Positions 1 to 34,273 of a DNA stretch of 64,000 nucleotides are shown in pieces. The notes beneath the pieces are model-generated. The model did not search any database and was not told the origin of the DNA. It saw only the letters and a program-made list of their open reading frames with translations. The DNA comes from Promethearchaeota archaeon (GTDB lineage Archaea > Asgardarchaeota > Lokiarchaeia > Sigyniarchaeales > SOKP01): NCBI GenBank assembly GCA_030603385.1, contig JAUVXW010000011.1, positions 29,564 through 93,563 on the forward strand, given 5' to 3'. Positions within the stretch are counted from its first letter, which is position 1. The number at the start of each line of letters is the position of its first letter. A program made the position numbers and the translations under genes.

Positions 1-3000
1 AATCATAATCTTGGACAAATTCACAATTTACCCAATAATCAACCATTATTTTATTCTGGTAATCGGTATAAGAGCTTAAATCACCAATAGGTCTAAAAGA
101 TAGAATATAAGCTGTTCCATTCTCATCAAATTCTAAAGCAAAATCTAAAGGAAATTCAAGAGTCTGCTCAGATGGGGTAAATGCACCACTATAACCCGTT
201 TGAACTTCACAATAATCATCCATGTATTTTCCTATTGGAAAGCCTTGTACCGATAATGCATAATGATATGGTAATCCTACTGTCCTAATCTCATCGACTT
301 CAAAATCCTCTGGGAGTTGTAAACCAAAATAAATATTTCCTTCATAATTGGGGAATATATCATTCATTACTGAAGAACTATTTGTATCTACATCTAAATC
401 GAAAATCTGATGATAGAATGCCCTTCCACTTGCAGTAATTCTGTCTGTCGTTAAGAATTGGTAGACAAAATTATATGTATCTTCCCATGAAGTGGATTTA
501 TAATTATTTATATTAGATCTATAATCTGGTATAAAATCTCCTTCATAATCCATAAAAATAGATGATGTATATTGTTTTTCACCATCAATTTGCGTACCAG
601 AACCATAATATAAATCGAGAAAACCGTCTTGATATAATGGCTCTTCGATATTATAAGTATCAATGAACATACCCAAGTTGGGAATCATATAGAAATTGGT
701 GTCATTAACAAGAAGAGTCTCTGAAGTACCTAAGAAACCAAATTCATAATCCTCTCCATCCGAATTTACTGAAACAAGTGTCGCGTTAGGTAAGCCTTGA
801 AGCCCTATTGTGACTTCACTCCCATCAATTAGTTCAAAGGGGGAATCTCCATATGGGGTTCCATCAATAAAGGGCTGAGAAAATACTTGATAATAGTGGG
901 GCGTGTTAATTGCTGATTTGGTCAGGAATTTTCCTTGTCTATTTAAAGGTGCCCTATCATAATTTTCGACAATATGTTCGTCTGCTACATAATCAAACGA
1001 TTCTAAAATAATATAAGGAATATAATTAGAACTATCTCCTTCATGATGTAAAATAACTTCGATATCAACAGTATCGGCCCCAACCATATCATAAATTGCT
1101 TGAAGATCTTTATAATATTGAATTGAATATATATTATTTACAATATCAGGTGATAAATCAGAATAGTCTAACGGAATGACAATAGGATCTGAATAAAATT
1201 CATAAAATCCATCATTTGTAATATATTTAAACTCGATTGTGAGGTTATTAAAATCGTTATCAAATGTATCTATTAGGTCTAAAACAGTATGATCGAGTGT
1301 AAAATTTAAATTAATTTCAGGGGCATATAGCAAAGGCACATTAAACAATTTAAGAGATGTCGTATCGTTCGAATTATCTAAAGATATATATAATGAAAGA
1401 TCATCAAGATCACACGAAAATAACTCATTATCTGAACCGTCTATTATCTTCGAAGAAGAACTATCATTATACATCAGTCTGACAGAATCACTATATGATC
1501 TATTTATTTTCTGGAATCCATAGCTGAGAGTATATTGCGATTTTACTCCATAAATTACATTAAATTCTGTACCTGGTGCCTGACTAAACAATATTTTCAA
1601 GTGGTTATTATCAAGATTCTTATCAATTGGGTTATTATCATTAAGCTTTTCTAATTCCTCCTCATTATAGATAATAAAATCTGATAATGTGGCACTTAGT
1701 TTACCATAAGGCATTATGTAATCAGCGGTAGCCCCATCGCAAGACTCAATAAATCGTGTATACATAGGAGAATAAGAACTATTGCTTGCTGGTAAAAATC
1801 CTTGTGGTAATCGTAGCTCAATGGAACTTTCATTATATGTTTTGAGTTGTCCCAAATATCCTAGAGTAACATTGCCAAAAATTTTGCCTGTAAAATCAAA
1901 CTTTAGCTTATAGGCAATTGAAAATTCAGAACCCGAATCAGGTAATTTGCTTCCTATGAAACGAATGATTGAATCATTATGTAAACTACCAGAAGGATTA
2001 TAAGGCATAATCCAGTCGATATCCTGAACGAATTCATATTCATCTCCGTCTTTTCTACCCTTTATCCTTAAAGCGTCTATTTCCACTAAGGCTAGAAGAG
2101 ATAGTAACTCGCTATCAGCATCTATTCCATAATCTAAAGTCTCATTGCTAAATAATAATGCGATTTCTTGACCATATATCTGACCATTTTCTGTTCCTCC
2201 CAAATACAATATGCCTGTCTCTTCTTCGACTAACCCTTCTTTGTCTACTGTAATAATATCATTAAAATAAACCCCGTCATCATATATTGACCAAGTAGTA
2301 TTAGGAGTACTACTAGAAGGATTAGCTTCTAAGCGTAGATCTAATAAGTATATCTCAACATTTCTTAAGTCTTCATAGATCTCGTCTTTGTTGAAATTAA
2401 TGTTAAATGATAAATTCAAATCGCATTGTAATCCCATTAAAAACGCATTTTCAGGCCCAAGACCAGTTTTAAAAGTCAAAATCCCATCATGATTACCAGG
2501 ACGAAGCATGATGTTATTTTCTAATGGAAATGTGCTGGTGGTTCCATCATCATTATAAATTGTGCAATCTAAATTGATTTCAATATAATCTTGAATGGAG
2601 CGCTCAATCTCATCACTGGTACCCATGAAATCGGGCTCAACCCATATTGAACCAATAAGATGTGGGTAATTGGACTCAAATGGCATTTCTACTTCGTTAT
2701 CATATGCAGTACCCCACGCAGATATAAAAGGATTAATAAGATCGATTTGAGTGTTCTTTTCCCCAAATTTTATCCAATTAGGCGGACGAATTTCTAAGGG
2801 AACGATAACTACAGGAGATTTCTTATAATATTCAGATTCTGCCACATAAACTTTTATTGTAGAAATACCAGGTCCTAAAGCTGTAAGTAGAATTTCTAGT
2901 TGATCATAATCATTAGTAATTTCAATAAAGCCACTATCATATCCTTCTTGAATCTCCATATACTTAGTCTCGACTAAAGTACCTGAAGGTGTATAAAATT

Positions 3001-30000: not shown

Positions 30001-33000
30001 AAGAGACATTCGCATAAGCATTATAAATTGTCGTACCAATAGTTTCGCCTGAGCCACCCGTTACCTGCCCATCACCATCAAAATAAAGCCCGTAGTCTCT
30101 TTTACCGATATCCCAAGATGTACCTCCTTGTATAAGCCCTTGATAATTGTGAATGAGGTCGTAGGTGGACGTCCCAAAATTCTCGTCAAATTCTGCCATA
30201 AAATCTAAAGAACTAGAAGGCTCGGATTCAGAATAGCTCGCCTTTAGTAAGTCATAGAGATCATAGGGCCAATCAGGATAACCATCTCTATTCTCATCAA
30301 TAAAGAAACGGCGCCCAAATATATCAGATTCAAGGCCAGCGTATTCCTCATGCGAGAGGGATTTATAGAATTCATCGCCTTCATGTTCAATTTTTACCAA
30401 TAAATTCTGCTCTATTGAACCATAAACTGTGTGGTTGAGGTAAAACTTACCATCTTTATCGGTATTTAAATTCGTAATTTTAGTATACCGATCATTGTCT
30501 TCAATGAAAAGTTCGAGATTATCTAATTGAACAGGCTTATGGAGAGAATTCACAATCTGCCCATCGTACACTATGTTCCAGCAGAGTTTTCCATCTATTT
30601 CATATTCAAACGTGTATACGGCACCATAGTTGAATCCATCTTCTAATGGTTCCGAAAATCGCTCATTTGAAAGGACTTCTAATGCATCTTTTTCGATTAC
30701 TATTTCATATGTTTTGGGTAAAGCAGATCGAAATCCAAACCCGGTTAATTCGCCATAATAGACTTCAACTTTATATGTTCCTGGTGCCAAATGTAATGTA
30801 TTAAGTGGGACGTGAGTCATCATTATATAGTCTTTTCGTGGACCGTTTACATAATCGGAAGATAACTCATAATATTTTTTTAAACGATATCCTTCTATTG
30901 ATGGTACATCTTGAGGGATAAATCGCACTCGTACATGCGAAGCTGCACCAATAGACGGTGATATTTTACATTTTATTACAATTTCATCATTAATAGACAG
31001 CTTATCAAGATCTTCGAGAAAAGAGGAATATTCCAAAGTTGTGAAGTCTATCGATGAAGGGTGAAGTCTTTGTTCTGGTGAGACTCTCGCAAACTCGAGG
31101 TCTGGAGAATTAATAGATGAAATGGAATTTACTGCAAAAATTAAAGGAAAAACGGTAAGGAATACCACTACTAATAATGCAGAACGAGCAATTTTATCGT
31201 TATATGTAAATAGTGTTTTCCTTGATTGGCTTCTTCTTTGTTTTTCTTTTTGTTGAGATCGTAAATAACGTCTAATAAAAGCTGTGCTTTTGAAAGTAAA
31301 AAGAAAAATTGCGGCAAATATACATCCATAACATATCAGTTGGAACTGTGGTGCTAAGACAAACACTCCAACAAATGCAATTGAGATGAGAAATAAGAGC
31401 GTCCATAATACAATAAACTTATTTTTATGATAAGCTCTTGCCCCTTTATATCGTATGTCATGTGCAAATTTTCTAATTGACGCATTTTTAACACTCTCTA
31501 ATAGATGTGATTGTGTTTTTTTAGGAATGATTTCAGGGGATTTTCTACTCAAGAAATAGCATATACAAATATTGATGATTGGAAGTAGCTGAGCATATTC
31601 TATCATCCCATTAGTGAAAAGTAGATAACCTATCCATGGTAAGGGGAGAAAACTTAATGGTAAAAATAATACCTGCCGTCGTCCTAGTAGCCTCCACCCA
31701 TTAAAGAATATGTAGGAGAAAAAGGAAAGTCCAACTTGTATAAGGAAAAACAGAAATTTTATGTCTTGCGGGAAGAATATCGTAGAAGATGGTGTGAAAT
31801 ATAATAAAGTAAATAAAAACAGTCCAAAAATCGATAAAAAGATTCCAGCATATTTTACCTTATTTTGAGAAATTGTTGTTTTAATTTGATGAAGACGATC
31901 TTTTAATGTGGAGTGTGTTAGCTTTTTGGCTTTAGATTTAGTCTCTTCGCTTTTAGCTGCTTTATAGCGCCCTAATTTTTTCGTTAAAATTCCAAAAATC
32001 GATAGAGTGATCCCTAGGTTTATTACTTTTTTTTGAGAAAGCTTTGCTTTAATTTGATGAAGATGGTCTTTTAAAGAAGACTTTTCCAAATTTTTGGTCT
32101 TAGATTTAGTCGTTATTTTTTTAGCGGTTTTATAGCGTTCTAATCTCTGCATTAAGATTGATTCTACAGTTCTCCTATGACGGGCTAAAGTGAGAACGTG
32201 TGAACCGTGCTTTACTTTTAATGGAGTTAATTCATTATAAAGATCCTCTCTTAGTTTATTTCGTACTCTTGGATTTTCGTTTTTGCCTTCTCCTTTAAAA
32301 AACACTTTTAATTTCTCTTTTTGTTCCTGTAAGAAGTTGTATTCCCCTTCTGACAATGTTTCTTCAAGGTTTTTGCTATATTCTATTTGAGTGAGTGTTT
32401 TATATTTCTTCTCGATCTTTTTAAAAATAGCTCTAAATTTCTTGATGACTTCATTGGAGTATCCTTCATTTTTTAATATTGAACTATATCCATTTTCATT
32501 TCTCATAAAATGGAATACGTCATTTAGGATCTCTTTTTCAAATTCGATCTCTTCTATAATCCTTAAGAGATCACTAGTAAAAGAATCAGAATACCCGTGT
32601 TTTTCTAATAAAGATATATTCTCGGATTTATTTTTTAAGAATTTAGTAATATTAATTGAGTCTGTGAAGTTTAGTAGATCTCTCGCCTTAGCGTAAAGAG
32701 CTTTTTGGGATTCTGGAAGTATGTATTCCTTCCCTTCTACAATGATAACTCCAGAGAAGATTTTCTCTAGCCGTTCTCTCCAGAAGTTTTCAATAGCTGT
32801 TGAAAATTCCCTATAGGATATTGTGTGAAAATTTAGAAATTTCTTACTATATTTCTTTCCATATAATTCTAGAGTTTTAAGATATTTATTACTATATCCT
32901 AATTTCTTAAAGAGATGTCTATATCCTTTCCTCACATGGGCAAACTCAACTACATCTACATCGTTCTTATAATCTAATAAGATAACTTTAAGGCCTAGAT

Positions 33001-34273
33001 GTTCCTTAATGAATTCATCTAATTGCGGACCATAAATCTTCTTGACGTGTTCCCTAACTTTTCCATCTTTCTTCTTTAATTTTCTGCGCCCTGAAAGGTC
33101 TAAATTAGATAATCTTTGTGATTCTTCATACTTTCGAAATGATATTCTTTGCTGCCTTCGAACATATGAAAGATCAACATAGGAATCAATCTTATCTTGT
33201 TTAGTCCCCTCAGAGATGGCAATACTTTTTATATTTGGTAAATTATCCTTATATTTTACTGGTGTTTGAGGGATATAATCTTGAAAAAATGATTTACGTT
33301 GTTGTTCATATTCTTTCTCCATGTTATTAAGGAGTTGAATTAATCTTACTATATCCCCATGATAGGTGTTTACGAATGAAGGTTTAAGTCTCTTACTTGG
33401 TTTTTCTCCAAACACAGTATTAGTTCTCTTTTTTTCTACAACTTCTTCTTGTAAATTTTCTTCTTCGATTGGCTTCTCTTTTTTGATTTTAACCCTACTT
33501 AAGCTAATTATTACATAAAGATCGTATTTATAGATAGGGTGCGAAAAAATCACAAGGAATATGAAAGGGGTAAATAGAAAATTTAAAGGAATAGTAAAAT
33601 AGAAAGAAATAGTACAAATAGCTGTAATTATTCCTGTAATTACTGTAAAGAACTGCTTTGAGCCGGTTGCTATATTTCCTTTACTCCCATGTTTGAATAG
33701 ATATAATTCATAAAAAATTAAAGTGAACAATAAAAGAAATACTACCTGCACTTGAGAGGCTGAAATAAATAAAGACAGGTAATGAATATACCAAAATGCT
33801 GAGAGTGAAATATATTTGAGAGCCTTTAATGTTATAGTATAGCCCTTATGCGCACGAGAAAATAGTGGTCTTATGCGCGGCGGTTTTGAATGAGTATTTC
33901 TTAATTTTTTAACAACATCAAAGTAGTAAAAACCACCTCTAATCGAGCAATATACTGACATCACAAGAAAAAGGGGGATTAATACATAGAGCGAATCATT
34001 CAGCGGGTTAGCATAATAGAAGAAAATAAGAAGTCCTAAAATAAAGGGAGTAAGATATAAGATAGCTAATAAAATACTCCTCATTATTAGAGATCTTTTT
34101 CTTTGATCTTTTGAAGTTACTTCTTCTTTGCTAATTCCTTCCCTTTGTATCGAGACTTGTGTCTGCGTTAATCTAGAAGAAGTAATCTGATTTATTTGAT
34201 TATTACGCGTACTATGACCATGTTTCGTACGTTCTATATCATATTCTTTTGGTCTTTCTTTATTTCTACTCAT
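1..34273 (-). CDS. Giant membrane-anchored surface protein, at least 11,424 aa, 3' end outside the window
   Basis: ATG at 34273 (MSRNKERPKEYDIERTK...) with GGTGA just upstream, overlapping the stop of the preceding ORF. Hand translation of long stretches is open, and the same frame reads ...DYQNKIMVDYWVNCEFVQDYD at bases 2-64. Any internal stop would have put the upstream part in the ORF track, and no listed minus ORF here is in this frame. Confidence 0.95.
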   Translation of the reverse strand, partial: MSRNKERPKEYDIERTKHGHSTRNNQINQITSSRLTQTQVSIQREGISKEEVTSKDQRKRSLIMRSILLAILYLTPFILGLLIFFYYANPLNDSLYVLIPLFLVMSVYCSIRGGFYYFDVVKKLRNTHSKPPRIRPLFSRAHKGYTITLKALKYISLSAFWYIHYLSLFISASQVQVVFLLLFTLIFYELYLFKHGSKGNIATGSKQFFTVITGIITAICTISFYFTIPLNFLFTPFIFLVIFSHPIYKYDLYVIISLSRVKIKKEKPIEEENLQEEVVEKKRTNTVFGEKPSKRLKPSFVNTYHGDIVRLIQLLNNMEKEYEQQRKSFFQDYIPQTPVKYKDNLPNIKSIAISEGTKQDKIDSYVDLSYVRRQQRISFRKYEESQRLSNLDLSGRRKLKKKDGKVREHVKKIYGPQLDEFIKEHLGLKVILLDYKNDVDVVEFAHVRKGYRHLFKKLGYSNKYLKTLELYGKKYSKKFLNFHTISYREFSTAIENFWRERLEKIFSGVIIVEGKEYILPESQKALYAKARDLLNFTDSINITKFLKNKSENISLLEKHGYSDSFTSDLLRIIEEIEFEKEILNDVFHFMRNENGYSSILKNEGYSNEVIKKFRAIFKKIEKKYKTLTQIEYSKNLEETLSEGEYNFLQEQKEKLKVFFKGEGKNENPRVRNKLREDLYNELTPLKVKHGSHVLTLARHRRTVESILMQRLERYKTAKKITTKSKTKNLEKSSLKDHLHQIKAKLSQKKVINLGITLSIFGILTKKLGRYKAAKSEETKSKAKKLTHSTLKDRLHQIKTTISQNKVKYAGIFLSIFGLFLFTLLYFTPSSTIFFPQDIKFLFFLIQVGLSFFSYIFFNGWRLLGRRQVLFLPLSFLPLPWIGYLLFTNGMIEYAQLLPIINICICYFLSRKSPEIIPKKTQSHLLESVKNASIRKFAHDIRYKGARAYHKNKFIVLWTLLFLISIAFVGVFVLAPQFQLICYGCIFAAIFLFTFKSTAFIRRYLRSQQKEKQRRSQSRKTLFTYNDKIARSALLVVVFLTVFPLIFAVNSISSINSPDLEFARVSPEQRLHPSSIDFTTLEYSSFLEDLDKLSINDEIVIKCKISPSIGAASHVRVRFIPQDVPSIEGYRLKKYYELSSDYVNGPRKDYIMMTHVPLNTLHLAPGTYKVEVYYGELTGFGFRSALPKTYEIVIEKDALEVLSNERFSEPLEDGFNYGAVYTFEYEIDGKLCWNIVYDGQIVNSLHKPVQLDNLELFIEDNDRYTKITNLNTDKDGKFYLNHTVYGSIEQNLLVKIEHEGDEFYKSLSHEEYAGLESDIFGRRFFIDENRDGYPDWPYDLYDLLKASYSESEPSSSLDFMAEFDENFGTSTYDLIHNYQGLIQGGTSWDIGKRDYGLYFDGDGQVTGGSGETIGTTIYNAYANVSYEYYLETNSIKSPQTTSNVERSGGGSVPVIESMLVDGSTSASSILTCDKPPGVQSGDLLVLIPFNDDISTTQQFIDNKVGWTLVTEVGNGISDSHIGMYYRVANGTEDSYESVTAQSSDEWGMWYLRISGVNTSDVIEDVSSDSISSSSPLSISGVTTNEDNCLIIYANAFDGGDGYPFEVSGTGFTEVDDYQTDTSGNSDVSASFGYKNMTSTGSSGTAIVTAQVGDGMAGYQVAINSAGGGTSGEEWQDTSKAAFQDDDDTYISFTTSTEDTSDWLQLNNFGFSIPTGASIDGIEVQIDRRANQTTIKDDAIYLRKSSGPVGNNEADTSSNWDDIDDDSYDSYGNSTYLWGDTWEVTDINSNDFGIDISVKYFGASDTSARIDHLQIKVYYTESTPTQDSGISHPDGDVTTEWESSHTGDHADLINETTLDTNDYIYTSSIASNNITDEFFMNTFDISSGSVTEIQIKVYGKEIDIDSTVNVYCGSWLGARQLDMSSTPAWHTFTWSGLDLSKANLDGMKIAFESEPPEEGGMSYENFDYVDFGDILDSTLGVSDTEFVITAWVYPTAFASNQSVNGIRNCFFSKSGVIELGVNETGFLQVHIIADTVNATAEYGFPGAIALNTWTFIAVRYNNSGNDVDVLIGDTWCREAIGATAEPWSSGGTLKGGGALIIGAEISTYSCFTGRLDDISVFNSSISDAEIESHSGGPYLAIDVVVSQEDGQGGWLPITVSGQTIDGWLNFECNSTGKPIELLEFFLAGTEPDLQNPTPEAWILLASFDASFSPDDGLYSYINTSWNIPDNESWYFVVKAIDDINNYVYDSYSTYFKIDHFDELINFTYVDNEGRINHNSQIGVNIDFEDHLSSLDVYINYSNDIDFLARVNYDDLTSDHWLIYLDSLSDWVNSKGLNPNNYDINFIIEANLSYGFSSCLYNYTLNHTILDINPPQMTLFSGDPYTLVLGKTYDNVQDNIVTMAINSTDTDFYKVDIEYKYETPTTSDWVSYGTFYSDENSLADISFNIFNLRDDNMTLRFIGYDVLDNEKILSDSSYWIVKDLNNHEQFRIEGLDNSVLYGLDQDGMINIDLKVFPVDNDITKIVVLTSYESFSLTSIVSEQNHIYFEDNGIKLNSTFYDIEGSDFTLIPIDIRLYQDAMFITSKEIIIIVTTATFDDIVEISNLFINISSEINNILMSFVDNPNAYNNSHRIPYIVNNLPPVLKIFNSHGDLVKIIELQVDYDYFASLNYTDEQNDSDIGSPSTTTNTDRIAGGGDDSEAQSPTITSNININLGGGGSYTTNWLSPFTASSVDRSNSIDWANLGNTLAQNDSYASANIIISEESVPIIESWTEQGDSMPSTNLILSKPSGVEVGDLLVLIVMNDDTSSIAFSDNKANWNFVGTSGDGVSDAHIAVFWRIADGNENPTETVTSAGLDEWMGYYLRIMGADDTTPINIKSFTQSSSSSNSHVIPAVTTTVDNCLVLYGLSFDGGDGYPFEVSGTGFTEVDDYQTDTSGNSDVSGCFGSKDLASQGTSGDATVSCSVSDGAAYFQIAIAPDNGGSSSTETDWLRLSDFNFAIPVGATIDGIEVGMDRKQDSPGSSIRDFSIFLRNSTGQNGEDKATSTWWNITDIDGYDIYGGSTDLWNGVWSVSDINNVNFGIDIAVENVGTTNTAYIDLVRIKIHYTLPDASGEEWVDTTKATSQNNDDTYVSFTTSTETTSDWLRLTNFGFTLPTSGVTITGIEVLFDRRSTVSDSIHDMELYLRNTTGQVGDNYADTLTSWDIVDNDVYDVYGSPTDLWGTSWAATEINSNDFGIDLYVEYNGSVNTDARIDHVQIKVYYTQSPQDQEPWNDLGKLVTQDGDYTYVSFSTLTESSSDWLRLANFGFNIPIGATINGIKVEMDRMATVGSAITDGEIFLRKISGQVGVDMANSTPWDTIDNDIYNIYGNSTYLWGASWTPTEINSADFGIDIYINYTGSSATDARIDHLKITVYYTHSPEIVISDNRFAVDLPELLEGDEICSIEAVKLNTSSYEFSYFKDAQNEEIFITLITQHDLDGLYDYTNPISIDFGVSNASHYSNQFKGSYNFTVLPQDNYTFVGEFFDISGVVSTYAISQPITIDYHGPQIYRQFDTNTTINPESGAISFYISDFSDVSTYYFDTTISGYWNTIDNIYTFYFNDASLSEGLKNIKLICNDTLGYISEYPFAIIIDKSAPIFNNVQVNYAYGNNLFEINATLTESSEYSISIECLHLSSGTIAPDFELTIIEIGEDQWQILIDTNWLQNGYYNITLIATDAAGNFNIYILENIYIDNSCPVVELIEEHIYVDNENIYNSTVVDTIYFNDNKNLTISAFDTVYDGFDWSQIDQTIADQLGIKNITFYYTNPLAWYNISIIGSLNYEQFIYEIDGYGDYFSSTQYIKSIQSIKIGDYTIDKFTILLDGTSLLLYIDPQYRYALSPASTRHIYAQFYELVDDEIVLQFSNNAKKWELLSSGRSCFNISDYLSLSEGDNFLFWLEIEDGMGNVLVSHKYEGYYDNVILKNDDYSLFNWVLGTNSTGSGIIIFGSDNYEDSTIHIDTSSILPDINGDSDAHRILVYGSSDEVNWDFVGRAYFSGEDDIWNYYWDGDYLKSIDKLPPENYFLKCLVFDKSGNYLDFNGSYCGTYSFGNEDVGNSGIDIDFIDATTLYTCEIESGDTIHSKILHLYEDDGAWNQGRNYFDAIGSGTVEFYVKCGETDERHRFMLAGATVGPMIYFHDTGYITAYYSTTHHNTRTYAADIWYHIRIDFECGTGEYEGLAADTYFLYINGSKYGPYNFWEIQSDISSWLYDPGGIAGGNAFVDAISYSWDEQYSIGENNYEFGYSPIKTYDYTQIKLISDLVFGNIFEYNSSLFSNENEIEGYIENYFGTTNLWDVIAQYYNPIEKEWVKMQTDPATILTNGSYSITWDINEDASFMASMYNFSYEYLPLQAAPLDNADLWGSWGLFGNSNEWQPIIISEASSDLDISIYKFDDQTGWTLDSSLSDEGTIASIQDQVFKLWDINKDSIYEIIRISSSQIDVIYLNDNLDWVIKENVTQLSGYNYITFDVEYDGSTTNSVMLTVQQDSSEAFSLWKYYFDTDYDLTYLVDCHAPLNFIPTSVEFVNYFSATDRKAILVGGLIEGSYYSQLFEYDFNLEIKNVIEDSVLGKILVIEYDEINGVDSIILGIERLAIGKMDAVIALRRKSGTEEWTDFEITGFDDIKFKIIDLFAIADNNLRKLLIASETGVFQTTITYLEDTTSIVSPVCFVSEVLGKQDLLPIYYPVITPKKTPIYMVNKITYKLNGDNNWYDLDIDKYRVSRTEIRLDLNSIWSNLAFAKVAYSFESFVGGEKTSIDPSFKNQNGTSDTQTISASGLFYSDISLPLLWLNPATSYESPIANWNWLPNSLTYQYTPVISGLGSTAIYPEVNSEWSSEYMMPELENSLIYYGDSYDSGMLAQNLNAKDDYLGETMFDGSFEGNYIDGAWISNPYISENFNFSQMYYSEIHDETSSGLYNFDGEQRILVENSLVNIEPDNSQVALIYDSGTLPSSLSAEYLTDIDYPDQDSGWDDGNFLNTHTDDSNYIRLSTDWTGYGYTYFGFFEMDIPYDGDDFYFSFHATSSYKPCELKINGQRLYYDTEIDFDRELITDVNYITFDFGDQFTGFSADVFYFKLERVSSNNPAVQGASLAEMKSVFSNWSQYMTTEKDENGIFGFEFTYKLPVISKESLEEIQVSFDASIYSLSFTQEYPLSLQLWNFEYNRWESLPVAPLDGNDYYYTDGLDLDFWGGHPTSAYTDDDMFRPKWGTTSLNDINTIGYGKCFPSTMDDSGNIVFDDSVLAGGSFLNNDDTSKQINTLFLDQSELITDEDYKVLFYDTDYNTNKFQLGNIIIDPATPYTKEYNDFPAYQNGFSFDANSEFYGNFINDLHEFKIHLITNRESGQVDNAYLCVGDFKTYTLTDTNYLNYDEFESNAIGTHHVSDDIDFTSNGIELYGYSGFNLKEPERTEKFRDNFRTSTWDLFGTSQDTIIFEKDIIDAAIARSLHPTTNYNIDNLSTYRHTYVGDHQSNTASIVEGSLVAGTDIYDTHEDDSNSMGITSEYFPIFNQRTKTRYSNLVITKTFDLYYDITSSFLTQIQIYLGDTDSPVHLIASTDGVQISLSGWTRVENNDPNLDYIWVMSSSIFIHQIDVDWLTSYDVIEEIEAFIITPDLIEYLALGSNDIWELEATITDGGTSLLLYSVEGFNADTITWEHRPYTHALLSFSPAYGQTFTLDLGAVKSTKSYFKIDTETLHYGVDYWNPKVKYQLAKRHQEPGLLYMQSDESESLSLKSQVYSKNISVTPNDQIVIEFKPKTSNEINFTLYCDGEVVQIFTIVPQGNNDFSSQFIILETSETIQFDQLMFSGTLDDTNYLSVSSISVLEGANIIDTQLSPYDYVEESYKPYIETGTPLTSSWFAHFEDGQYYNISSNLKSTIQEVFVEFEFSVPKSETVDMNKMGINLKGFATSASLEGATFKVRNLNSSLYEDIDYILRNVDTFSFSILEDQFYKFDDGDFYTISFKIGLIASSEFVVHIDSLNIFTYKPWSVEHDLYRASFVFEPVGTGQNETDYVSVFVNDNINITIYDDLLDFGDNVISFYYNPNEQKWHGYFYNNTYNDFTDLLNIADSEFTAPKLKIESHYGDTDKGIIVKSIESQYYTQIRNEQDFAKYKSLIASYKAVDGHADVLELDADDRLLNAENTFAQISADVDIIYSFHDEMEHENIFEYELLPTFAVGSYDNLESYIYDETGFILDSATGLSDSYVTDFYGDAVKTLGDLNPDIRDNDSVTCDFKVAWAQRSYQSSSYTVEAEVNNPPYTSGPQDEAGWSTREDDGKERVYWAEVVYTNEDWVRYSDYYHFALANYPLPYYPADVDVEAKIHWGFRPDRGTSYLVWQNTFCKIYAKRWSSGVYEEIAEIPYEELTELTLDLDQAYYLYVGPGMPPTYIYKIDLKIVTQVWCYNLGNPSLQVTLDYLYVDEKGYQNDPNNAKVGFNFDSLLNGQNDFIVNFDGWTDTWDGSEYTGGYYTSYFYVNDNIEHTFSYDDSNGFSGFFANIDSLMALVVADAQGLDGEAYDRRLLIDYLYLEWLNQPVNITLKNDKIINVTSSLSHKQQNPAPIDSGLYDDPYFGKNSIHFTLKNSIQTPIFGRENDIIWADLELSDLELDFKVYPDTNKPLENNNIEGNNETKYVPAILGNYTEYSTSRFRHSASDDIQIPLLTPIQLDFGQIDLAMYERGILELALELDIDLDNRASDSTWSLRSRLLYYNYTSGYWEDFKGMIRIESQDYNRAVWDPVTFSDNFIDYLQDFRVSNNIIPILNDNDINVKNPFTINNLNNNTIKDGVMKLAFLSYIIPSNISIDPDSNNFVYERMNPEIPIEISQTVDVIDCVFIGESRQVMYPEASLTANLELDENFRANLSLIDNLGEILAVKGILSEDSVVYEYPIYYYWTTQDNELAFNSPMKYQFTNVSIEYIPQLILTYNSSDGYWYLPGSFVSGDINYTKPFFVSDLWVNNTHYGTYIHPDVNVWYTIGSNDYGMFVDFTNATHLDSIVKGTIHFGKVDDTSLYRFSLKDETLLRNNILPNPSDFVGGTLHLEFNTGFKDVIHSELSQVLCGDYVLKVSLYELDMGRNELSSIGTLEKVLDTNYLGFHYYELELSFDEIDYVEGGEAVLAETFTRDASSDLYITLEVMISECSVDGNLFKGMFAHELLYANIEMESQDSVYLYNEESIEGPYFTIAQNGIILTQVDITSYIFESSDLEYKYNFEIYSLYAGAEILREHIDYSFDQDQKVITLIGPYKGYNGYLIANIIYYAFEWHEGMISSLSPVTLTFQYDYVKNITKFMELIIQYSEIPGFQFENIDLNSGRLVFSDETKSSSLLKIYLYNYRENRWDESSFVCYDDYTGTNTFSYIVDRNFLMFENYFNETETGDFEIKAIFTIEGDNDESFLSKAGFSITSIAANMYYDTPKTEAKVTPEVIFDVDLTEYYTDSDIYLEEITLSLDYFGELEFDDSFIFSQYMLLEENYNVYIRNEYLDFEEFSLENDEITLSREQIDRFIYHDIENEKYFIRAKLEYDWNCILEMNLGSNSKLEVLSTLNLFKYDLTAAYTSYETTRISAQKVNIAYDLAEIFAPNYYETDGSIEVLENDEETDIGILGGFLRNSATKQRLMVRQELLYNFTEGSKNIVIDREYTDAILKFLIPYGFITSPTDYITNTTRLTFISDSDVKLIEVYYHDGNDYQKKGDMTQDEDNRCKFDFIWTNAAGDTGASSGEGIKIMFNITDILGNNGQYKYILIADFDDPTPEITLENGTENYQNDQVAGPETSIDFNSGEQEESSISQPYSYEDPFTSYDSQYMSYTPSPDDYSSIWNMDALYMQSLFPTTSSSEAWGGWSLNYNSDDTYSTFNDGDLNSEILGANYDVPEQPADFSFSKGTLQSQGNLADYGDTYSTFRSTSVPSWYNSGWAYRKAITLKSDWISSTFTNFPFYFSVWDTGITIYAQFDGDDILFTASNGITKLDHEMEHYAGGGSGHIRAWIRIPTLPSTGTTIYIYYGNPTCGNQQNIEGVWDSNYVLVEHFEESSGATIDDSSDFDNDLTVVGPNLDVTGFLGRDSDGVYFDGTNDYLYRADDSDFDFGTGDFTVSCWFKTSKTAFEALVSKTSSSANLGWSLDKNANHDIRLILRDSGSYVAYATGTFDNDVWYHVYGRRSGDNLKVKVSEAISGTDTGVDNVDVSSSYELRVGDRYYSHQYFSGYMDEVRISKVARSDSWLWSNYQNQVNPSNSYTKGAKESVPYGELSFTVNAELTGVESGDSVVAQLKYSYKNAESVPVTLSIYNHAQSNWNTVIDDTVYSSFSQHTYDITSDYYDASYNLQFKFEGSSILNQFDFYLDQFKIDYFSWSPTGDLYADISKTISETFLNRYDSGFSNYKKLYNISVEFNYRFTKDNSLLDDFAQFTIDGNDYTLTKDGSWHIFSDTIEFDSTSKNGFDLMFNISNGLLELDNMKYTYTFKCLDSSDQILLQQDFEIDFPEEDELLNLRNFLNMDYLLYTSYSFNPTLDELTYYNTYGRANKLEIIFKIKADGVWHDTALLYALNSAETDVYSFNITQYMRDNKLNTFQDFAVEYVLIGNSSELTVNYVTLSCTTSLKQIQEYYRIIDNTMGSVSEWVKFDSSDISILDDLGDLPENFTIEYKVIDFAGNECINSTYNDNYQHIIFSREKFISLTNDSIDLNSLDTIDREISFADNNQFNHLDYLDAYINGFKYGTAYLENGFYRLSFGSENSYETLIAYSDSLTSNYIYSNTNPINHVSWEVRDSDFFGVVKHVLVDGDIVITNPLTYNTNCTLEIEHIYDRGYMLQNYARIREAFYYNTSSGDNEIIYLALMIDFVVDNNGVVTFPEGSRLHDLYNNPSKVKDSLIYFNYDASPFYDQLQLSNADGFFINFTMPAIYYEHTTIGKLTVSFHDFTGKTFSKVYWDIDLRKYFLESIRDQYEIEIFGLGKMMSIPLYIDLNELAFSNPGTPFDLSLLESITITISDSELWPGSFLQEVGEYSVLNLPYQRVGILDFTLYNLISDDITPDENGHVQSTVMFISPDYYDLFAQAPFNITRLDIEFTNLKMYNDGTEIAGEYYATYSFEDELGETGADIDFVDTYYAAEDCSVSIISELDGHKDVLQMNDQSDTGRTYIFQQFSSSLDNTIEFWLGSSWNPDYTYRNAYIYIDDDGTNLAFLMLTGPAFRYYNGSTDITISSFNQDTLYHIRIDFDDTANTYDVYVNGILEVSDIAYLNPSTEGIDRIRLYTRDYNSGYKIYFDAIGFSHDLNYDIGDNRYPYAEVEYSDFIELNYRWNDSLSPVILNDLIKIPVNLINASSGEILSFDVASWITKHDKDSLSGYYSKYYYSRFEVPKLLGDFDITFGSFGTPIHNIHFGDFKEVGMWNLGDEGKAYDVVNRNHGIVSGNPQLVDGKVGKAVRFDGSGDYYNLGNPEELQITGSQTICMWLYPEDFSQRRNPYAKAYGGEGTITQEMSGTLSYYYGTAGVNAQPYQGFGSSQTIPLNDWSFICVVRNLENMRLYWYIDGELTNEVDALYSAATTSSLSAYIGQGYAYDYQGKIDGVRMYDSALTEDQVKWLYNEGDGQIDPLNDIRCKINVTQESLFASGPIYLQETTYELEYGDSLMLKGAVLDNDEYIVEDRVYTYRYQEALDGTTVHHLDFESPFNDDTFIDKEEFAIYYVSNIDNDNDTLEILPLYSTLNGKYFKNKTILDFNKDPYISYIDNAFLLNIYWDSQSQAFINYDTELLISYKVLNGRPIAPISFSSLDSYGNDNRDYLVEIPFARYDMLNRSWVTEDDFIEEFSIDKKLLYEDVESTGAVLQGAEYYDGQLIQTGVIAFEGIYVNWSNSDIFELLDDSQYDWSINVNGELSIADLPYSSGDVFRVIYYSVNPTPIIHSINSLVSSVNYIQVENSTGFKYNFELGTDYIISADGYRIYFKDLYNTILKSGNFSLYDRFEINYHTSLARKIDLSQNLLLTLQDSEGNDIPIDTVPIDSIGLFEYDQPLREDGTLSIPLGGGKKLVHMCLKYLPSNIFNKSAGQLMDIDYNGSDFGKIYPYKESNAWAKPFTVITIPKKVKLEMIEDPSQNILINQRFYEEREYVFNYNPAEALENGEEYTKVSIDALVRENYTFTFKLTDFKDKPINNSIVWLHIGFMPKSKTEFLNTRTVIDDLGISPYFESLGTEEITSRGPGEGPSKMFGRPLLYELNNYSTGYSAYGPYMFIFGRTDEFGEVDFDMSFNSDYLEDFVDIFGNLEGINSIEDMILYIRAFSTYFDWDDFAIDTPDQYLCSTDENVFDGSTKLPNYNFDDLAIQDSTYVEGLIRLHKGDIILGVHDYLSYNLPDSDLGDDYDPLTLHLYVNEADPIPSTTSTTLESLIKVYSSSELEAQSGDILSDDYRYHAIIEFYTPSGTLVETKYMEIQEGYDSGFIEITNDYDQLEILLTALGPGISTIKVYVAESEYYKKSPVVIVPLEIRPPNWIKFGEKNTQIDLINPFISAWGTAYDNEVEMPFESNYPHLIGSIWVEPDFMGTSDEIERSIQDYIEINLDCTIYNDDGTTSTFPLENNIMLRPGNHDGILTFKTGLGPENAFLMGLQCDLNLSFNINFNKDEIYEDLRNVEIYLLDLRLEANPSSSTPNTTWSIYDDGVYFNDIITVDKEGLVEEETGILYLGGTENGQIYGQEIALLFSNETLDYGIDADSELLSLLALVEIDALRIKGRKDGDEYEFVQDIDWIMPYNPSGSLHNDSIIRFIGSKLPDSGSEFSIAYKLKFDFTGKIFGNVTLGYLGQLKTYNESSIELRLPQGFLPASNSSYSPMYTRFIESCDGATADYIMPYGKLSATLSDFIIYNEEELEKLNDNNPIDKNLDNNHLKILFSQAPGTEFNVIYGVKSQYTLSYGFQKINRSYSDSVRLMYNDSSSSKIIDGSDNELFSCDLDDLSLYISLDNSNDTTSLKLFNVPLLYAPEINLNFTLDHTVLDLIDTFDNDFNNLTIEFKYITNDGFYEFYSDPIVIPLDYSDLSPDIVNNIYSIQYYKDLQAIYDMVGADTVDIEVILHHEGDSSNYIPYIILESFDYVADEHIVENYDRAPLNRQGKFLTKSAINTPHYYQVFSQPFIDGTPYGDSPFELIDGSEVTIGLQGLPNATLVSVNSDGEDYEFGFLGTSETLLVNDTNFYMIPNLGMFIDTYNIEEPLYQDGFLDLYYGSGTQIDGEKQYTSSIFMDYEGDFIPDYRSNINNYKSTSWEDTYNFVYQFLTTDRITASGRAFYHQIFDLDVDTNSSSVMNDIFPNYEGNIYFGLQLPEDFEVDEIRTVGLPYHYALSVQGFPIGKYMDDYCEVQTGYSGAFTPSEQTLEFPLDFALEFDENGTAYILSFRPIGDLSSYTDYQNKIMVDYWVNCEFVQDYD
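5465..6075 (-). other. Intact LamG domain within the giant protein
   Basis: GKVGKAVRFDGSGDYYNLG...TICMWLYP...WSFICVVR...YIDGE...YQGKIDGVRMYDSALT. Confidence 0.88.
6375..6990 (-). repeat. ConA-like module, copy 2 (YATYSF...TIEFW...YHIRIDF...YFDAIGFSHD..Y.IGDN)
   Basis: Clear paralogue of 21445-22050. Confidence 0.75.
9480..10490 (-). other. DUF2341 plus LamG module within the giant protein
   Basis: WYNSGWAYRKAITL...NFPF...DDILFT...KLDHEME...AWIRIP.L...TTIYIYYGN, then HFEE...YFDGTNDYL...DFTVSCWFK...WYHV...FSGYMDEVRIS. Confidence 0.85.
21445..22050 (-). repeat. ConA-like module, copy 1 (YCGTYSF...GTVEFY...WYHIRIDF...FVDAISYSWD..YSIGEN)
   Basis: Clear paralogue of 6375-6990. Confidence 0.75.
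24035..26255 (-). repeat. Three copies of jelly-roll-like domain A plus one copy of domain B, nested
   Basis: Conserved DWLRLxxFxFxxP..(A/V)TIxGIxV..DR...YG..TxLW...W....IN..xFGID...IDxx.I..(Y/H)YT at ~25325-24960, 24945-24490 and 24475-24035. Confidence 0.9.
25458..25534. repeat. 77-bp exact repeat, copy 1
   Basis: acatcagaatttccagaagtgtc...gacttcgaatggata is identical to 29397-29473. Confidence 0.95.
28820..29990 (-). repeat. Fourth copy of domain A containing a second copy of domain B (VPVIES...KPPGVQSGDLLVL...)
   Basis: Same motifs as the 24-26 kb copies. Domain B at ~29925-29283 is paralogous to ~25985-25350. Confidence 0.88.
29397..29473. repeat. 77-bp exact repeat, copy 2
   Basis: Identical to 25458-25534. 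Confidence 0.95.
31120..34273 (-). other. N-terminal polytopic membrane region of the giant protein: two TM clusters flanking a ~500-aa Lys/Arg-rich soluble region
   Basis: Hydrophobic segments at ~34080-33500 (ILLAILYLTPFILGLLIFFYY etc.) and ~31860-31120 (GIFLSIFGLFLFTLLYF ... ALLVVVFLTVFPLIFAV). The sequence between them is basic and everything downstream is acidic. Confidence 0.8.
31808..32143 (-). repeat. Diverged 168-bp (56-aa) tandem duplication in the giant gene
   Basis: LERYKTAK...LKDHLHQIK..LSQ..V...GI.LSIFG followed by LGRYKAAK...LKDRLHQIK..ISQ..V...GI.LSIFG; starts at 32143 and 31975. Confidence 0.9.

What the first reader, a model, noticed from the sequence alone, without database searches (positions are those of the whole stretch)
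1..34273. Hidden >34-kb ORF: an archaeal surface protein of at least 11,424 aa
Over half the window is one uninterrupted frame missed by the ORF track. It is larger than halomucin (~9,000 aa), a well-known giant archaeal protein, and it is not finished at the edge. It is not a simple tandem-repeat adhesin: most of it is non-repetitive, with lectin-like (LamG, ConA-like, DUF2341) and Ig-like modules. It is fully intact next to a heavily decayed region, which implies selection. A role in cell contact or surface architecture is inference.
Basis: partly seen in the sequence, partly recalled or inferred. Interest (0 to 1): 0.92.

Follow-up and report, generated by a model that had tools for sequence, protein, structure and literature searches.

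The report
Giant Asgard surface protein, swappable tail
The hidden frame is a real gene for a 14,829-residue (1.7 MDa) membrane-anchored surface protein of a Loki-type Asgard archaeon, and its last ~900 residues are an exchangeable cassette that travels with a partner gene, the layout bacteria use for contact-dependent toxin/antidote systems.

Summary
Observation confirmed and extended. The minus-strand frame (window 2-34273) continues past the window edge. The whole gene is 14,829 aa (contig C3:19347-63836, 1.70 MDa, pI 4.3), with no stop and no N.

It is a real gene under purifying selection. dN/dS is 0.12-0.18 over about 10,000 codons against an ortholog in the closest Promethearchaeota MAG. 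Collinear 11,800-20,619-aa orthologs occur in other species. The same genome holds a 9,130-aa paralog.

Architecture:
- a basic N-terminal region with about 13 TM helices;
- a ~12,000-aa acidic, sequon-bearing, mostly non-repetitive body with beta-type periodicity (Pfam finds only Big_3_3, DUF2341 and Laminin_G_3);
- a sequon-free C-terminal ~1,830 aa with two hydrophobic-tipped helical hairpins and a TM helix;
- an all-alpha tail with no known fold.

Against the closest relative, identity is 80-93% up to about aa 13,900, then about 20% in the tail, and the downstream partner gene differs too. G000 keeps a remnant of the relative's tail plus its partner 13 kb away. Other members carry deaminase-like or LAGLIDADG tails.

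Best reading: a polymorphic-toxin-like surface system. Toxicity is not shown. This scan reported the same kind of protein on other Asgard DNA, including this genome's paralog.

The parts
2..34273 (-). Giant ORF, aa 1-11,424 of 14,829. The remaining 3,405 aa lie before the window at contig C3:19350-29564.
33524..34273 (-). N-terminal basic region with about 6 hydrophobic helices (aa 1-250). Only 28% identical to the closest relative.
31874..33496 (-). K/E-rich, net basic, helix-type linker (aa 260-800), inferred cytoplasmic. Absent or different in orthologs.
31121..31858 (-). Conserved polytopic TM block (aa 806-1,051, about 7 helices). The last helix would put the following chain outside the cell.
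2..31120 (-). Acidic ectodomain with beta-type periodicity and N-x-S/T sequons (aa 1,052-11,424 within the window; it continues to about aa 13,000). Net charge is -40 to -76 per 500 aa.
28790..29917 (-). Internal repeat module, copy 1 (aa 1,453-1,828).
24008..25978 (-). Internal repeat modules, copies 2-4 (aa 2,766-3,422). This is a G000-specific insert relative to the orthologs.
23192..23494 (-). Big_3_3 Ig-like domain (aa 3,594-3,694).
10094..10351 (-). DUF2341 domain (aa 7,975-8,060), inside a lineage-specific insert (aa 7,806-8,606).
5483..5947 (-). Best Laminin_G_3 / ConA-like lectin domain (aa 9,443-9,597), inside a lineage-specific insert (aa 9,400-9,616).
35657..37381 (+). Divergently transcribed 574-aa type I surface glycoprotein: signal-like N-terminus, 11 sequons against 5.6 expected, C-terminal TM plus KRKKFKKK. 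Conserved beside the giant gene in G003, G014 and G323 (60% identity in G323).

Best explanation
Shown. The frame is one intact, selected gene for a 1.70-MDa protein of a Lokiarchaeia-type (Promethearchaeota) archaeon. It belongs to a family of 9,000-20,600-aa collinear, mostly non-repetitive proteins concentrated in one archaeal family. Compared with the closest relative, the body is highly conserved. The last ~900 aa and the gene immediately downstream are replaced together. Truncated spare tails with their own partner genes lie elsewhere in the genome.

Inferred topology. The N-terminus is cytoplasmic and about 13 TM helices anchor the protein. About 12,000 aa of acidic, glycosylatable, beta-rich chain, with a few lectin-like and Ig-like modules, projects from the cell. 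A conserved, sequon-free end-module follows: a beta-sandwich, two long helical hairpins with Gly/Ala-rich hydrophobic tips, an alpha/beta domain and one TM-like helix. After a conserved junction motif (PPLVDV..NP..KFN, about aa 13,880-13,905) comes the variable tail.

Inferred function, my best guess. This is a contact-dependent effector-delivery (polymorphic-toxin-like) system. The giant stalk reaches and binds a neighbouring cell, the hydrophobic hairpins act on a membrane, and the unglycosylated variable tail is the payload. In G000 the tail is an all-alpha module with two invariant His in a beta-beta-alpha element, possibly a His-Me-type nuclease. The Zn-ribbon partner protein neutralises the tail in the producer.

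My separate odds: real giant surface protein 0.9; cassette-plus-partner architecture 0.8; tail acts as a delivered toxin or effector 0.4.
For: Real gene:
- No stop in 14,832 codons against 940-1,919 stops in the other frames.
- dN/dS 0.17, 0.18 and 0.12 over 2,297, 3,243 and 4,176 aligned codons against G323, and 0.24 over aa 12,000-14,519.
- Collinear orthologs of 12,736, >=11,783 and 20,619 aa cover 75-79% of the residues at 40-70% identity.
- A collinear 9,130-aa paralog lies in the same genome.
- 197 clusters at 50% identity match the end-module.
- 33 of 301 genomes of the phylum have it, 28 of 68 in the window's own family.
- Contigs from at least 3 studies at 90-99% identity cover window 10001-30000, and nearly all listed indels preserve the frame.

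Topology:
- TM helices and charge profile.
- Sequons observed/expected: 6/5.9 in aa 1-1,051, 155/132 in the body, 0/11.4 in the last 1,829 aa.
- The tail depletion also appears in the orthologs and in metagenomic members. Genome-wide the ratio is 1.10, and only 1 of 149 ORFs with an expectation of 5 or more has none.
- Periodicity is beta-type in the body and alpha-type at both ends.
- AF2 of the end-module: pLDDT 78.5.

Cassette:
- Identity to G323 is 80-93% up to aa 13,800, 33% at 13,900 and about 20% beyond.
- G323 lacks partner A and has a 125-aa partner B instead.
- G000 keeps the last 309 aa of the G323-type tail (90% identity) plus partner B (87% identity) at C3:5982-7381.
- A second spare tail fragment with a partner gene lies at C47:9802-10919.
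- The tail-A and partner-A pair recurs at 4 independent loci.
- Another member pairs a tail with a Toxin-deaminase hit (E 4e-6) with an LRR partner, and another tail carries LAGLIDADG_3.
- Two His are invariant among tails that are only 22-30% identical, in a beta-beta-alpha element of a pLDDT-86 model.
Against: - No toxin, nuclease or known trafficking domain was detected in G000's own tail or end-module by Pfam, NCBIfam, PADLOC, PDB sequence or profile searches, Foldseek, VIA-align, BFVD or the ESM Atlas.
- The Toxin-deaminase hit in a relative (27.5 bits) is below Pfam's cut-off of 29.6.
- The positive-inside rule around the TM-like helix at aa 13,788-13,806 (a K-rich C-side) favours a cytoplasmic tail.
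- Free-standing tail homologs (729 and 748 aa) have no signal peptide.
- The partners share a common N-terminal basic motif and Zn ribbon, which is unusual for immunity proteins.
- The tails fall into a few diverged groups rather than many unrelated folds.
- No DNA repeat marks the proposed recombination sites.
- There is no expression or protein evidence.
Confidence: 0.55

Rival explanations
1. Doubly anchored envelope or adhesion protein with a cytoplasmic tail (integrin-like receptor or linker). The N-terminal TM block and the helix at aa 13,788-13,806 both sit in the cell's own membrane, so about 12,700 aa form a giant extracellular loop. That loop builds or bridges the S-layer-less Lokiarchaeial surface. 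The variable all-alpha tail and its Zn-ribbon partner act inside the cell as signalling, cytoskeletal or regulatory parts, not as a toxin.
For: - The segment after the last hydrophobic helix is K-rich.
- Free-standing tail homologs lack a signal peptide.
- The partner is a Cys-rich Zn-ribbon protein without a signal.
- The neighbouring genes in the window are ordinary type I surface glycoproteins.
- Lokiarchaeum cells show complex surface densities, some of which connect protrusions (PMC9834061).
- No toxin fold was found in this tail.
Against: - It does not explain the complete lack of N-x-S/T sequons in the last 1,829 aa and in the free-standing homologs. The N-terminal cytoplasmic region has the chance number.
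- It does not explain the sharp tail breakpoint with co-replacement of the partner, or the spare truncated tail-plus-partner pairs.
- It does not explain the deaminase/LAGLIDADG tails and LRR partner in other members.
- The patchy distribution and pseudogene fragments argue against a core envelope role.
Confidence: 0.3
2. Cargo of a mobile element or provirus, like the tandem giant genes of Heimdallarchaeial 'aloposons', rather than a chromosomal host function.
For: - The upstream flank is AT-rich (28% GC against 34.5% in the gene and 30.8% in the genome), with many ORFs lacking Pfam hits and an R-M methylase.
- The distribution is patchy.
- The gene's position relative to conserved neighbours differs between close relatives.
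- Wu et al. 2022 (PMC8813620) note that some Asgard giant genes may lie on mobile elements.
Against: - There is no tRNA in the window, no integrase or ParA/MinD hit among the neighbours scanned, and no tandem giant pair.
- The flanking genes (proteasome, aminotransferase, gelsolin, EMC3-like) are conserved chromosomal genes in several relatives.
- The divergent 574-aa neighbour is conserved with the gene.
Confidence: 0.05
3. Assembly chimera or unexpressed relic: the long frame is an artefact of joining fragments, or a gene that is no longer used.
For: - The genome is a 58-contig MAG with 7% estimated contamination.
- No raw reads of the source sample were available.
- G000-specific inserts (aa 1,403-2,001, 2,658-3,415, 7,806-8,606) are not confirmed by orthologs.
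Against: - Independent assemblies of at least 5 species give the same collinear order.
- An 8.5-kb contig from another study is collinear with the window.
- dN/dS is 0.12-0.18 and indels preserve the frame.
- A chimera would not stay open for 44.5 kb.
Confidence: 0.03

Closest known systems
Bacterial polymorphic toxin systems (CdiA/CdiI, Rhs, WapA, MafB; Zhang et al. 2012, PMC3482391, as cited in PMC6393860)
   Same: - A very large conserved surface or delivery protein with a sharply bounded variable C-terminal region.
- A partner gene immediately downstream that changes with the tail.
- Displaced, 5'-truncated spare tail-plus-partner pairs.
- A conserved junction motif before the variable part.
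- Tails in some members that hit toxin-type families (deaminase, LAGLIDADG).
   Different: - None of the known trafficking modules (TPS/FHA, PAAR, Rhs/YD, LXG, etc.) was detected.
- The anchor is an N-terminal polytopic TM domain in a single-membrane archaeon.
- The body is 3-5 times longer and non-repetitive.
- The variable part is ~900 aa of all-alpha fold with no known toxin domain.
- The partners share a basic-helix and Zn-ribbon N-terminus.
- Neither toxicity nor immunity has been shown.
Archaeal 'huge proteins' (>=5,000 aa) with Laminin_G_3 (PMC11573180), and the >10,000-aa archaeal proteins noted mostly in Asgard archaea (West-Roberts et al. 2023, 10.1101/2023.11.21.568195; Wu et al. 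2022, PMC8813620, Extended Data Fig. 7)
   Same: Archaeal, over 10,000 aa, carries Laminin_G_3, function unknown. Asgard archaea were reported as the archaeal group with the most such genes.
   Different: Those papers list such genes without anatomy. Here the family, its collinear core, its paralogy, the sequon-free end-module and the exchangeable tail are described. Laminin_G_3 sits mid-protein in lineage-specific inserts, not at the N-terminus.
Halomucin of Haloquadratum walsbyi (~9,159 aa)
   Same: A giant, acidic, presumably glycosylated archaeal surface protein.
   Different: - Different phylum.
- No sequence relationship was tested here.
- Halomucin is described as mucin-like and protective. 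It is not known to be TM-anchored at the N-terminus or to carry a swappable tail. This comparison rests on my own knowledge and on PMC11573180's mention.
Giant staphylococcal surface protein Ebh and RTX/Bap-type adhesins
   Same: MDa-size, membrane-anchored, rod-like surface proteins with Ig-like or lectin-like modules.
   Different: Those are built from many near-identical tandem repeats. Here only 10% of residues have any internal paralog.

Membership tests
Polymorphic toxin systems (Zhang et al. 2012) | Conserved N-terminal/central delivery region with a sharply divergent C-terminal domain between close relatives | tested here: met
   G000 against G323: 80-93% identity up to aa ~13,800, 33% at 13,900 and ~20% beyond. 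The body is 57-88% identical along its whole length.
Polymorphic toxin systems (Zhang et al. 2012) | A gene immediately downstream (the immunity gene) that co-varies with the C-terminal domain | tested here: met
   Tail A with the DUF2695-like partner A occurs at G000, L023, L024 and L040. Tail B occurs with the 125-aa partner B in G323 and as a spare pair in G000. A deaminase-type tail occurs with an LRR gene. G323 has no partner A. Immunity function itself was not tested.
Polymorphic toxin systems (Zhang et al. 2012) | Orphan (displaced, 5'-truncated) tail plus immunity cassettes | tested here: met
   C3:5982-6905 plus 6950-7381, and C47:10299-10919 plus 9802-10302. Free-standing tail A plus partner in L023-L026.
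Polymorphic toxin systems (Zhang et al. 2012) | The C-terminal domain is a toxin (nuclease, deaminase, peptidase, pore-former, etc.) | tested here: inconclusive
   G000's tail has no Pfam, PADLOC, PDB or fold match. It has two invariant His in a beta-beta-alpha element. Relatives: Toxin-deaminase at 27.5 bits (cut-off 29.6) and LAGLIDADG_3 at 23.3 bits (cut-off 22.5).
Polymorphic toxin systems (Zhang et al. 2012) | A recognised secretion or trafficking module (TPS/FHA, Rhs/YD, PAAR, LXG, MafB-N, etc.) | tested here: not met
   No such Pfam family was found anywhere in the 14,829 aa at E<=1. The N-terminus is instead a polytopic TM domain.
His-Me finger (HNH-type) nucleases | A beta-beta-alpha-metal fold with a catalytic His at the end of strand 1, an Asn/Asp, and a metal-binding His in the helix | tested here: inconclusive
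   The motif is HH-x12-(D/N)-x8-H at aa 14,640-14,662. H39 and H61 of alignment A4 are invariant, but the D/N position is not. AF2 places strands at tail residues 564-568 and 582-586 and a helix at 587-593. There is no HNH-family hit by Pfam or by a profile against PDB sequences.
Archaeal huge proteins with Laminin_G_3 (PMC11573180) | >=5,000 aa, archaeal, carries Laminin_G_3 | tested here: met
   14,829 aa. Laminin_G_3 at E 7.7e-39 with 3 stretches. Relatives are named Promethearchaeota.
Aloposon giant genes Otus/Ephialtes (Wu et al. 2022, PMC8813620) | Tandem 3,000-6,000-aa genes, integration at a tRNA downstream, and four upstream genes including a MinD/ParA ATPase | tested here: not met
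   This is a single gene. There is no tRNA in the window and no ParA/MinD among the scanned neighbours. Sequence similarity to Otus/Ephialtes was not tested.
Halomucin | Sequence homology to Haloquadratum halomucin | not tested
   No halomucin sequence was available through the tools used.

The most novel reading that the evidence does not exclude
Lokiarchaeia-type Asgard archaea have their own contact-dependent effector-delivery machine, unrelated in sequence to bacterial CDI, Rhs or T6SS systems. It would consist of a 9,000-20,000-aa membrane-anchored stalk, whose conserved sequon-free end-module inserts into a neighbour's membrane and delivers an exchangeable tail. In G000 the tail would be a new His-Me-like nuclease family, neutralised by a Zn-ribbon partner. 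Tail switching would occur by recombination or inversion with spare cassettes. This would give a molecular handle on cell-to-cell conflict or kin recognition in the closest relatives of eukaryotes.
Probability: 0.35. Interest if true: 0.85.

Novelty: new variant of a known kind. Interest (0 to 1): 0.66.

Why it matters
Lokiarchaeia lack an ordered S-layer. They show large, unidentified surface structures that are thought to mediate the cell-cell contacts central to models of eukaryogenesis (PMC9834061).

This gene family supplies concrete candidates for those structures. Each is a 1-2.3 MDa protein that is conserved, selected and non-repetitive.

The exchangeable tail with its matching partner gene and spare cassettes is the genetic signature of inter-cellular conflict or recognition systems. 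Such systems have been predicted in archaea only in other, much smaller builds.

About 97% of the protein has no known domain, and two confidently modelled parts have no fold match. The family is therefore also a large reservoir of new structure.

The sequon-free end-module is a simple, testable marker. It shows which part of the protein must stay unglycosylated.

Tried and rejected
- The search for homologous proteins with aa 1,001-6,000, restricted to proteins of 5,498-17,495 aa: no hit. The database evidently lacks full-length members, so this says nothing about uniqueness.
- ESM Atlas feature search of the last 1,005 aa and of aa 9,998-11,424: no usable hit.
- phmmer of the whole protein against PDB sequences: no hit at E<=0.01.
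- NCBIfam: no family. PADLOC: nothing for tails, end-module or partner.
- Rfam on the window: nothing. tRNA scan: none.
- Fold searches of the tail model (Foldseek PDB, VIA-align wide) and of the end-module model (Foldseek PDB, VIA-align wide, ESM Atlas, BFVD) gave only generic helical-bundle, TM-hairpin or beta-grasp similarities: Z<8, E>0.007, TM<0.25. Single domains were not folded alone, so 'no known fold' is provisional.
- Profile of the His motif region against PDB sequences: only chance-level hits such as FtsX and UFL1.
- Sequencing runs: no RNA holder was listed, so there is no evidence either way on expression. The runs laid were Logan contigs of related strains, not raw reads of the source sample.
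- A search for DNA repeats between the spare tail locus and the 3' end of the giant gene, which could mark an inversion site: only chance matches. The single-inversion model therefore rests on gene order alone.
- I first considered that the free-standing 729-748-aa homologs meant an artefactual fusion in G000. I rejected this because fused forms spanning the junction occur in G003, G323, L040, P0005 and P0060.
Full report
**1. The observation**

The window holds one open frame on the minus strand from 34282 (GTG; the ATG is at 34273) to position 2, still open at the edge. The window is C3:29564-93563 of a 58-contig, 3.89-Mb assembly. In the contig the frame continues to a stop at C3:19347-19349, giving 14,829 aa from the ATG with no N. 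The product is 1.70 MDa with pI 4.3.

With the gene's own base composition, 7.6% of codons would be stops. That puts log10 P(no stop) at -507. The five other frames carry 940-1,919 stops each.

**2. A real, selected gene**

Same-genus genomes hold collinear orthologs:
- G003: 12,736 aa, complete.
- G014: at least 11,783 aa, cut by the contig end.
- G024: 20,619 aa, complete.

These cover 75-79% of the G000 residues in the same order at 40-70% identity.

The closest relative is G323, named 'MAG: Promethearchaeota archaeon isolate DZ3M.322'. It has a 12,455-aa ortholog. Nei-Gojobori dN/dS against it is:
- 0.17 for aa 1,052-5,000;
- 0.18 for aa 5,001-9,600;
- 0.12 for aa 9,601-13,800, about 9,700 codons in all.

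Logan contigs from at least three studies, at 90-99% identity, cover every bin of window 10001-30000. One 8,562-nt contig is collinear with the window. The listed indels are compensated +1/-1 pairs or multiples of three, with one exception in a minority contig.

All named relatives are Promethearchaeota/Promethearchaeia MAGs, and a gelsolin gene lies nearby. This supports the Asgard assignment made in earlier notes of this scan.

**3. Family**

- The same genome holds a paralog, C41:11310-38699, with a 9,130-aa frame. It is collinear with aa 1,056-13,717 at 22-32% identity.
- A profile of the end-module finds it in 33 of 301 genomes of the phylum: 28 of 68 in the window's own family and 13 of 22 in the genus.
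- Open frames in that survey range from 9,240 to 20,619 aa. Shorter proteins of 1,000-3,400 aa and fragments with stops also occur.
- An exhaustive search finds 197 clusters at 50% identity, mostly contig-limited pieces.

The family is therefore sizeable, lineage-restricted, patchy and often lost. That is the behaviour of an accessory system rather than a core envelope part.

**4. Anatomy**

a) *N-terminal membrane region (aa 1-1,051).* This part is net basic, +37/+38 per 500 aa. It has about 6 hydrophobic helices at aa 67-250, a K/E-rich linker at 260-800, and a conserved block of about 7 helices at 806-1,051. K/R-rich loops alternate in the way the positive-inside rule predicts. This places the N-terminus and the linker inside the cell and the chain after helix 1,033-1,051 outside. 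That topology is inference. Only the TM block is conserved in orthologs. The first 250 aa are 28% identical to G323.

b) *Body (aa 1,052 to ~13,000).*
- It is strongly acidic, -40 to -76 net charge per 500 aa.
- It is rich in D, S, T, N, Y and I, with 0.5% Cys.
- It has 155 N-x-S/T sequons against 132 expected.
- Its hydrophobic periodicity matches the Pfam-defined beta domains within it, and differs from the alpha-helical ends.
- Only 10% of residues have an internal paralog.
- Pfam finds Big_3_3, DUF2341 and Laminin_G_3 and nothing else, even at E<=1.
- DUF2341 and LamG lie in inserts that the closest relative lacks, aa 7,806-8,606 and 9,400-9,616.
- Identity to G323 rises along the chain: 39% in the TM block, 57-75% at aa 1,200-6,800, and 80-88% at aa 6,800-13,600. 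The Pfam-blank C-terminal third is the most conserved part.

c) *End-module (aa ~13,000-13,905).* AF2 with a 55-sequence alignment gave mean pLDDT 78.5. The model shows:
- a beta-sandwich;
- a 50+38-residue helical hairpin whose tip is Ala/Thr/Gly-rich and hydrophobic (aa 13,154-13,246);
- a confident alpha/beta domain (13,250-13,575);
- a second long hairpin with a Gly/Ala/Ser-rich tip (13,579-13,694);
- helices, and a TM-like helix (13,788-13,806) conserved in G003 and G014 and followed by a K-rich stretch.

The only structural similarities are generic TM hairpins and a beta-grasp, all with Z<8.

d) *Junction and tail.* A conserved motif (PPLVDVL.SI..NP.D...KFN in G000; P.VD...NPNP in G003 and G014) ends at about aa 13,905. 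The tail follows, to aa 14,829.

AF2 of aa 14,074-14,829, with 25 sequences, gave pLDDT 86 and pTM 0.62. The model is all-alpha with one small beta-beta-alpha element. It has no PDB match beyond generic four-helix bundles.

Among tails that are only 22-30% identical, two His are invariant. The pattern is HH-x12-(D/N)-x8-H, aa 14,640-14,662, and it falls on that beta-beta-alpha element. This fits a His-Me finger. No Pfam or PDB profile search supports it, however, so it stays a lead.

**5. The sequon-free C-terminus**

The last sequon is at aa 12,929. The final 1,829 aa have none, against 11.4 +/- 3.1 expected from shuffles, with a minimum of 4 in 500 shuffles. Related sequences show the same pattern:

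| Sequence | Sequons observed vs expected |
|---|---|
| G024 | none in its last ~2,600 aa |
| G014 | none in its last ~800 aa (sequence cut by the contig end) |
| G003 | 3 in its last ~1,870 aa (after aa 10,860) |
| P0006 | 2 vs 14.1 |
| P0011 | 3 vs 13.7 |
| P0003 (free-standing tail) | 0 vs 3.9 |
| P0004 (free-standing tail) | 0 vs 6.2 |

Genome-wide the observed/expected ratio is 1.10. Only 1 of 149 long ORFs with an expectation of 5 or more has none. The protein's own N-terminal cytoplasmic part has 6 against 5.9. Three type I glycoproteins in the window have about twice the expectation.

Avoidance, as opposed to neutrality, implies that this part meets the glycosylation machinery and must stay glycan-free. 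This is inference. It argues that the end-module and tail are, at some stage, outside the producer's cytoplasm.

**6. Exchangeable tail with partner gene**

*Breakpoint.* Against G323, identity per 100 aa is 78-93% from aa 12,000 to 13,800. It is 71% at 13,800, 33% at 13,900, and 17-29% from 14,000 to 14,500.

*Partner A.* Downstream of the G000 gene lies a 186-aa protein at C3:18727-19287. It has a basic N-terminal motif (MKKERAIIIKSQRLRKVR), CxxC...CxxC motifs and a weak DUF2695 hit.

*Partner B.* G323 has no such gene. Its giant gene is instead followed by a 125-aa protein with the same N-terminal motif and Zn ribbon but an otherwise different sequence.

*Spare pair in G000.* At C3:5982-6905, G000 keeps a frame that is 90% identical to the last 309 aa of the G323 giant. 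At C3:6950-7381 it keeps partner B at 87% identity, next to the same proteasome gene that follows partner B in G323.

*Recurrence of tail A with partner A.* The pair is found:
- free-standing (729 and 748 aa; 55% and 46% identity) in syntenic loci of other MAGs;
- as a 1,062-aa gene starting at the TM-like helix.

*Further spares in G000.* These comprise a tail fragment plus partner at C47:9802-10919, a further tail-motif frame on C30, and three further partner-like genes.

*Other tail types.* Across the family, tails fall into at least three sequence groups plus singletons.
- One member has a C-terminal Toxin-deaminase hit (E 4e-6, 27.5 bits, cut-off 29.6) and is followed by an LRR protein.
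- Two members have LAGLIDADG_3.

*Gene order.* In G000 the order is: body, tail A, partner A, radical SAM, EMC3-like, GtrA, 386 aa, then in reverse gelsolin ... proteasome, partner B, tail B remnant. This equals the G323 order after one inversion between the resident tail and an inverted spare cassette. No DNA repeat marks the sites, so this is a model only.

**7. Interpretation**

The shown facts are:
- a giant conserved body;
- a sharp C-terminal breakpoint;
- a co-varying downstream gene;
- displaced truncated spares;
- toxin-type tails in some members.

These are the defining genetic features of polymorphic toxin systems, and four of five membership features are met or partly met. The missing features are a known trafficking module (tested, not met) and proof that this tail is a toxin (inconclusive).

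I therefore do not file this protein as a member of any bacterial family. I read it as working like one: a contact-dependent effector-delivery or recognition system built on a new archaeal scaffold. The hydrophobic-tipped hairpins are candidate membrane-active elements, and sequon avoidance fits a payload that must cross a membrane.

The main rival is a doubly anchored envelope or receptor protein with a cytoplasmic tail. It is favoured by the K-rich segment after the last helix, by the signal-less free-standing homologs and by the Zn-ribbon partner. It leaves the sequon avoidance and the cassette genetics unexplained.

My odds:
- real giant surface protein: 0.9;
- cassette architecture: 0.8;
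- delivered toxin or effector: about 0.4;
- cytoplasmic-tail receptor or adhesin: about 0.3.

**8. What is known**

- West-Roberts et al. (10.1101/2023.11.21.568195) state that archaeal proteins over 10,000 aa are few and mostly in Asgard archaea.
- Wu et al. [quoted passage not shown]
- PMC11573180 finds Laminin_G_3 in almost all archaeal huge proteins, 'function not understood'.
- PMC9834061 shows complex unidentified surface proteins on Lokiarchaeum.
- Polymorphic toxins have been predicted in archaea in other builds (PMC6393860).
- I found no paper that describes this family or its exchangeable tail.
- Earlier entries of this scan describe the same kind of protein in Lokiarchaeum ossiferum and other Asgard genomes, and the 9,117-aa paralog of this genome. 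Those are unchecked notes. I tested the overlapping claims myself, as listed.

**9. Verdict**

The finding is real, and its first reading is supported. The size alone is not unprecedented: a relative reaches 20,619 aa, and proteins over 10,000 aa in Asgard archaea are in print. The interest lies in four things:
- the conserved non-repetitive architecture;
- the sequon-free end-module;
- two confidently modelled parts without known folds;
- the tail-plus-partner cassette system.

I class it as a new variant of a known kind, with interest 0.66.

Noticed in passing
G000 contig C41:11310-38699 (+), outside the window: A second giant gene in the same genome, with a 9,130-aa frame. It is collinear with the window's gene at 22-32% identity from aa 1,056 to 13,717. 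It is an old paralog, already reported by this scan as e1-5551698.
   Followed up: partly
G000 contig C3:5982-7381 (+), 22 kb before the window start: A spare 3' remnant (309 aa, 90% identity) of the tail carried by the closest relative's giant gene, followed by that relative's 125-aa partner gene (87% identity). Both lie next to the proteasome subunit gene.
   Followed up: yes
G000 C47:9802-10919 (-); C30:52308-52856 (-); C18:12068-12532 (+); C46:28980-29354 (-): Further tail-motif fragments and partner-like genes (basic N-terminal motif plus Zn ribbon) scattered in the genome. On C47 they form an adjacent fragment-plus-partner pair.
   Followed up: partly
G024:C13:86445-148301 (loci L019-L022): The ortholog in another species of the genus is 20,619 aa, complete and without N. 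It is the longest frame of the family that I saw.
   Followed up: partly
window 38656-41535 (-) and 37947-38819 (-): A 959-aa acidic ORF (18 sequons vs 9.4 expected, N-terminal hydrophobic helix) overlaps a 290-aa ORF by 164 nt. This may be one ~1,200-aa surface glycoprotein gene broken by a frameshift, or by one of the tRNA-type mini-introns that earlier notes report for this genome.
   Followed up: no
window 59943-62447 (-): An 834-aa type I surface glycoprotein candidate: N-terminal and C-terminal hydrophobic helices, 16 sequons vs 7.6 expected, net charge -73, no Pfam hit.
   Followed up: no
window 46517-49144 (-): An 875-aa fused restriction-modification protein (HSDR_N_2 + N6_Mtase + Eco57I methylase domains) inside an AT-rich stretch (26-29% GC) of short ORFs without Pfam hits.
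   Followed up: no
window 56877-58091 (+): A 404-aa TPR protein with weak Rgg_C and MalT-like TPR hits. It resembles the wHTH-TPR regulator modules noted elsewhere in this genome by the scan (e1-5551256).
   Followed up: no
G000 C3:14635-18044 (-), just downstream of partner A: A conserved block of radical SAM/SPASM, EMC3/TMCO1-like (Oxa1-type insertase), GtrA-like and 386-aa unknown genes. Its position relative to the tail-plus-partner pair differs between genomes. Whether the insertase-like or GtrA genes serve the giant protein is unknown.
   Followed up: no
G000 C3:738-1751 (-): A 337-aa leucine-rich-repeat protein about 4 kb from the spare tail B. An LRR gene directly follows a deaminase-type tail in another family member (L041:4447-5187), so this may be another spare partner.
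   Followed up: no
L040:3001-6189 and L041:1114-4407: Short complete genes (1,062 and 1,097 aa) inside long contigs carry only the last part of the end-module plus a tail. They are either large 5'-truncated spares or independent short forms.
   Followed up: partly
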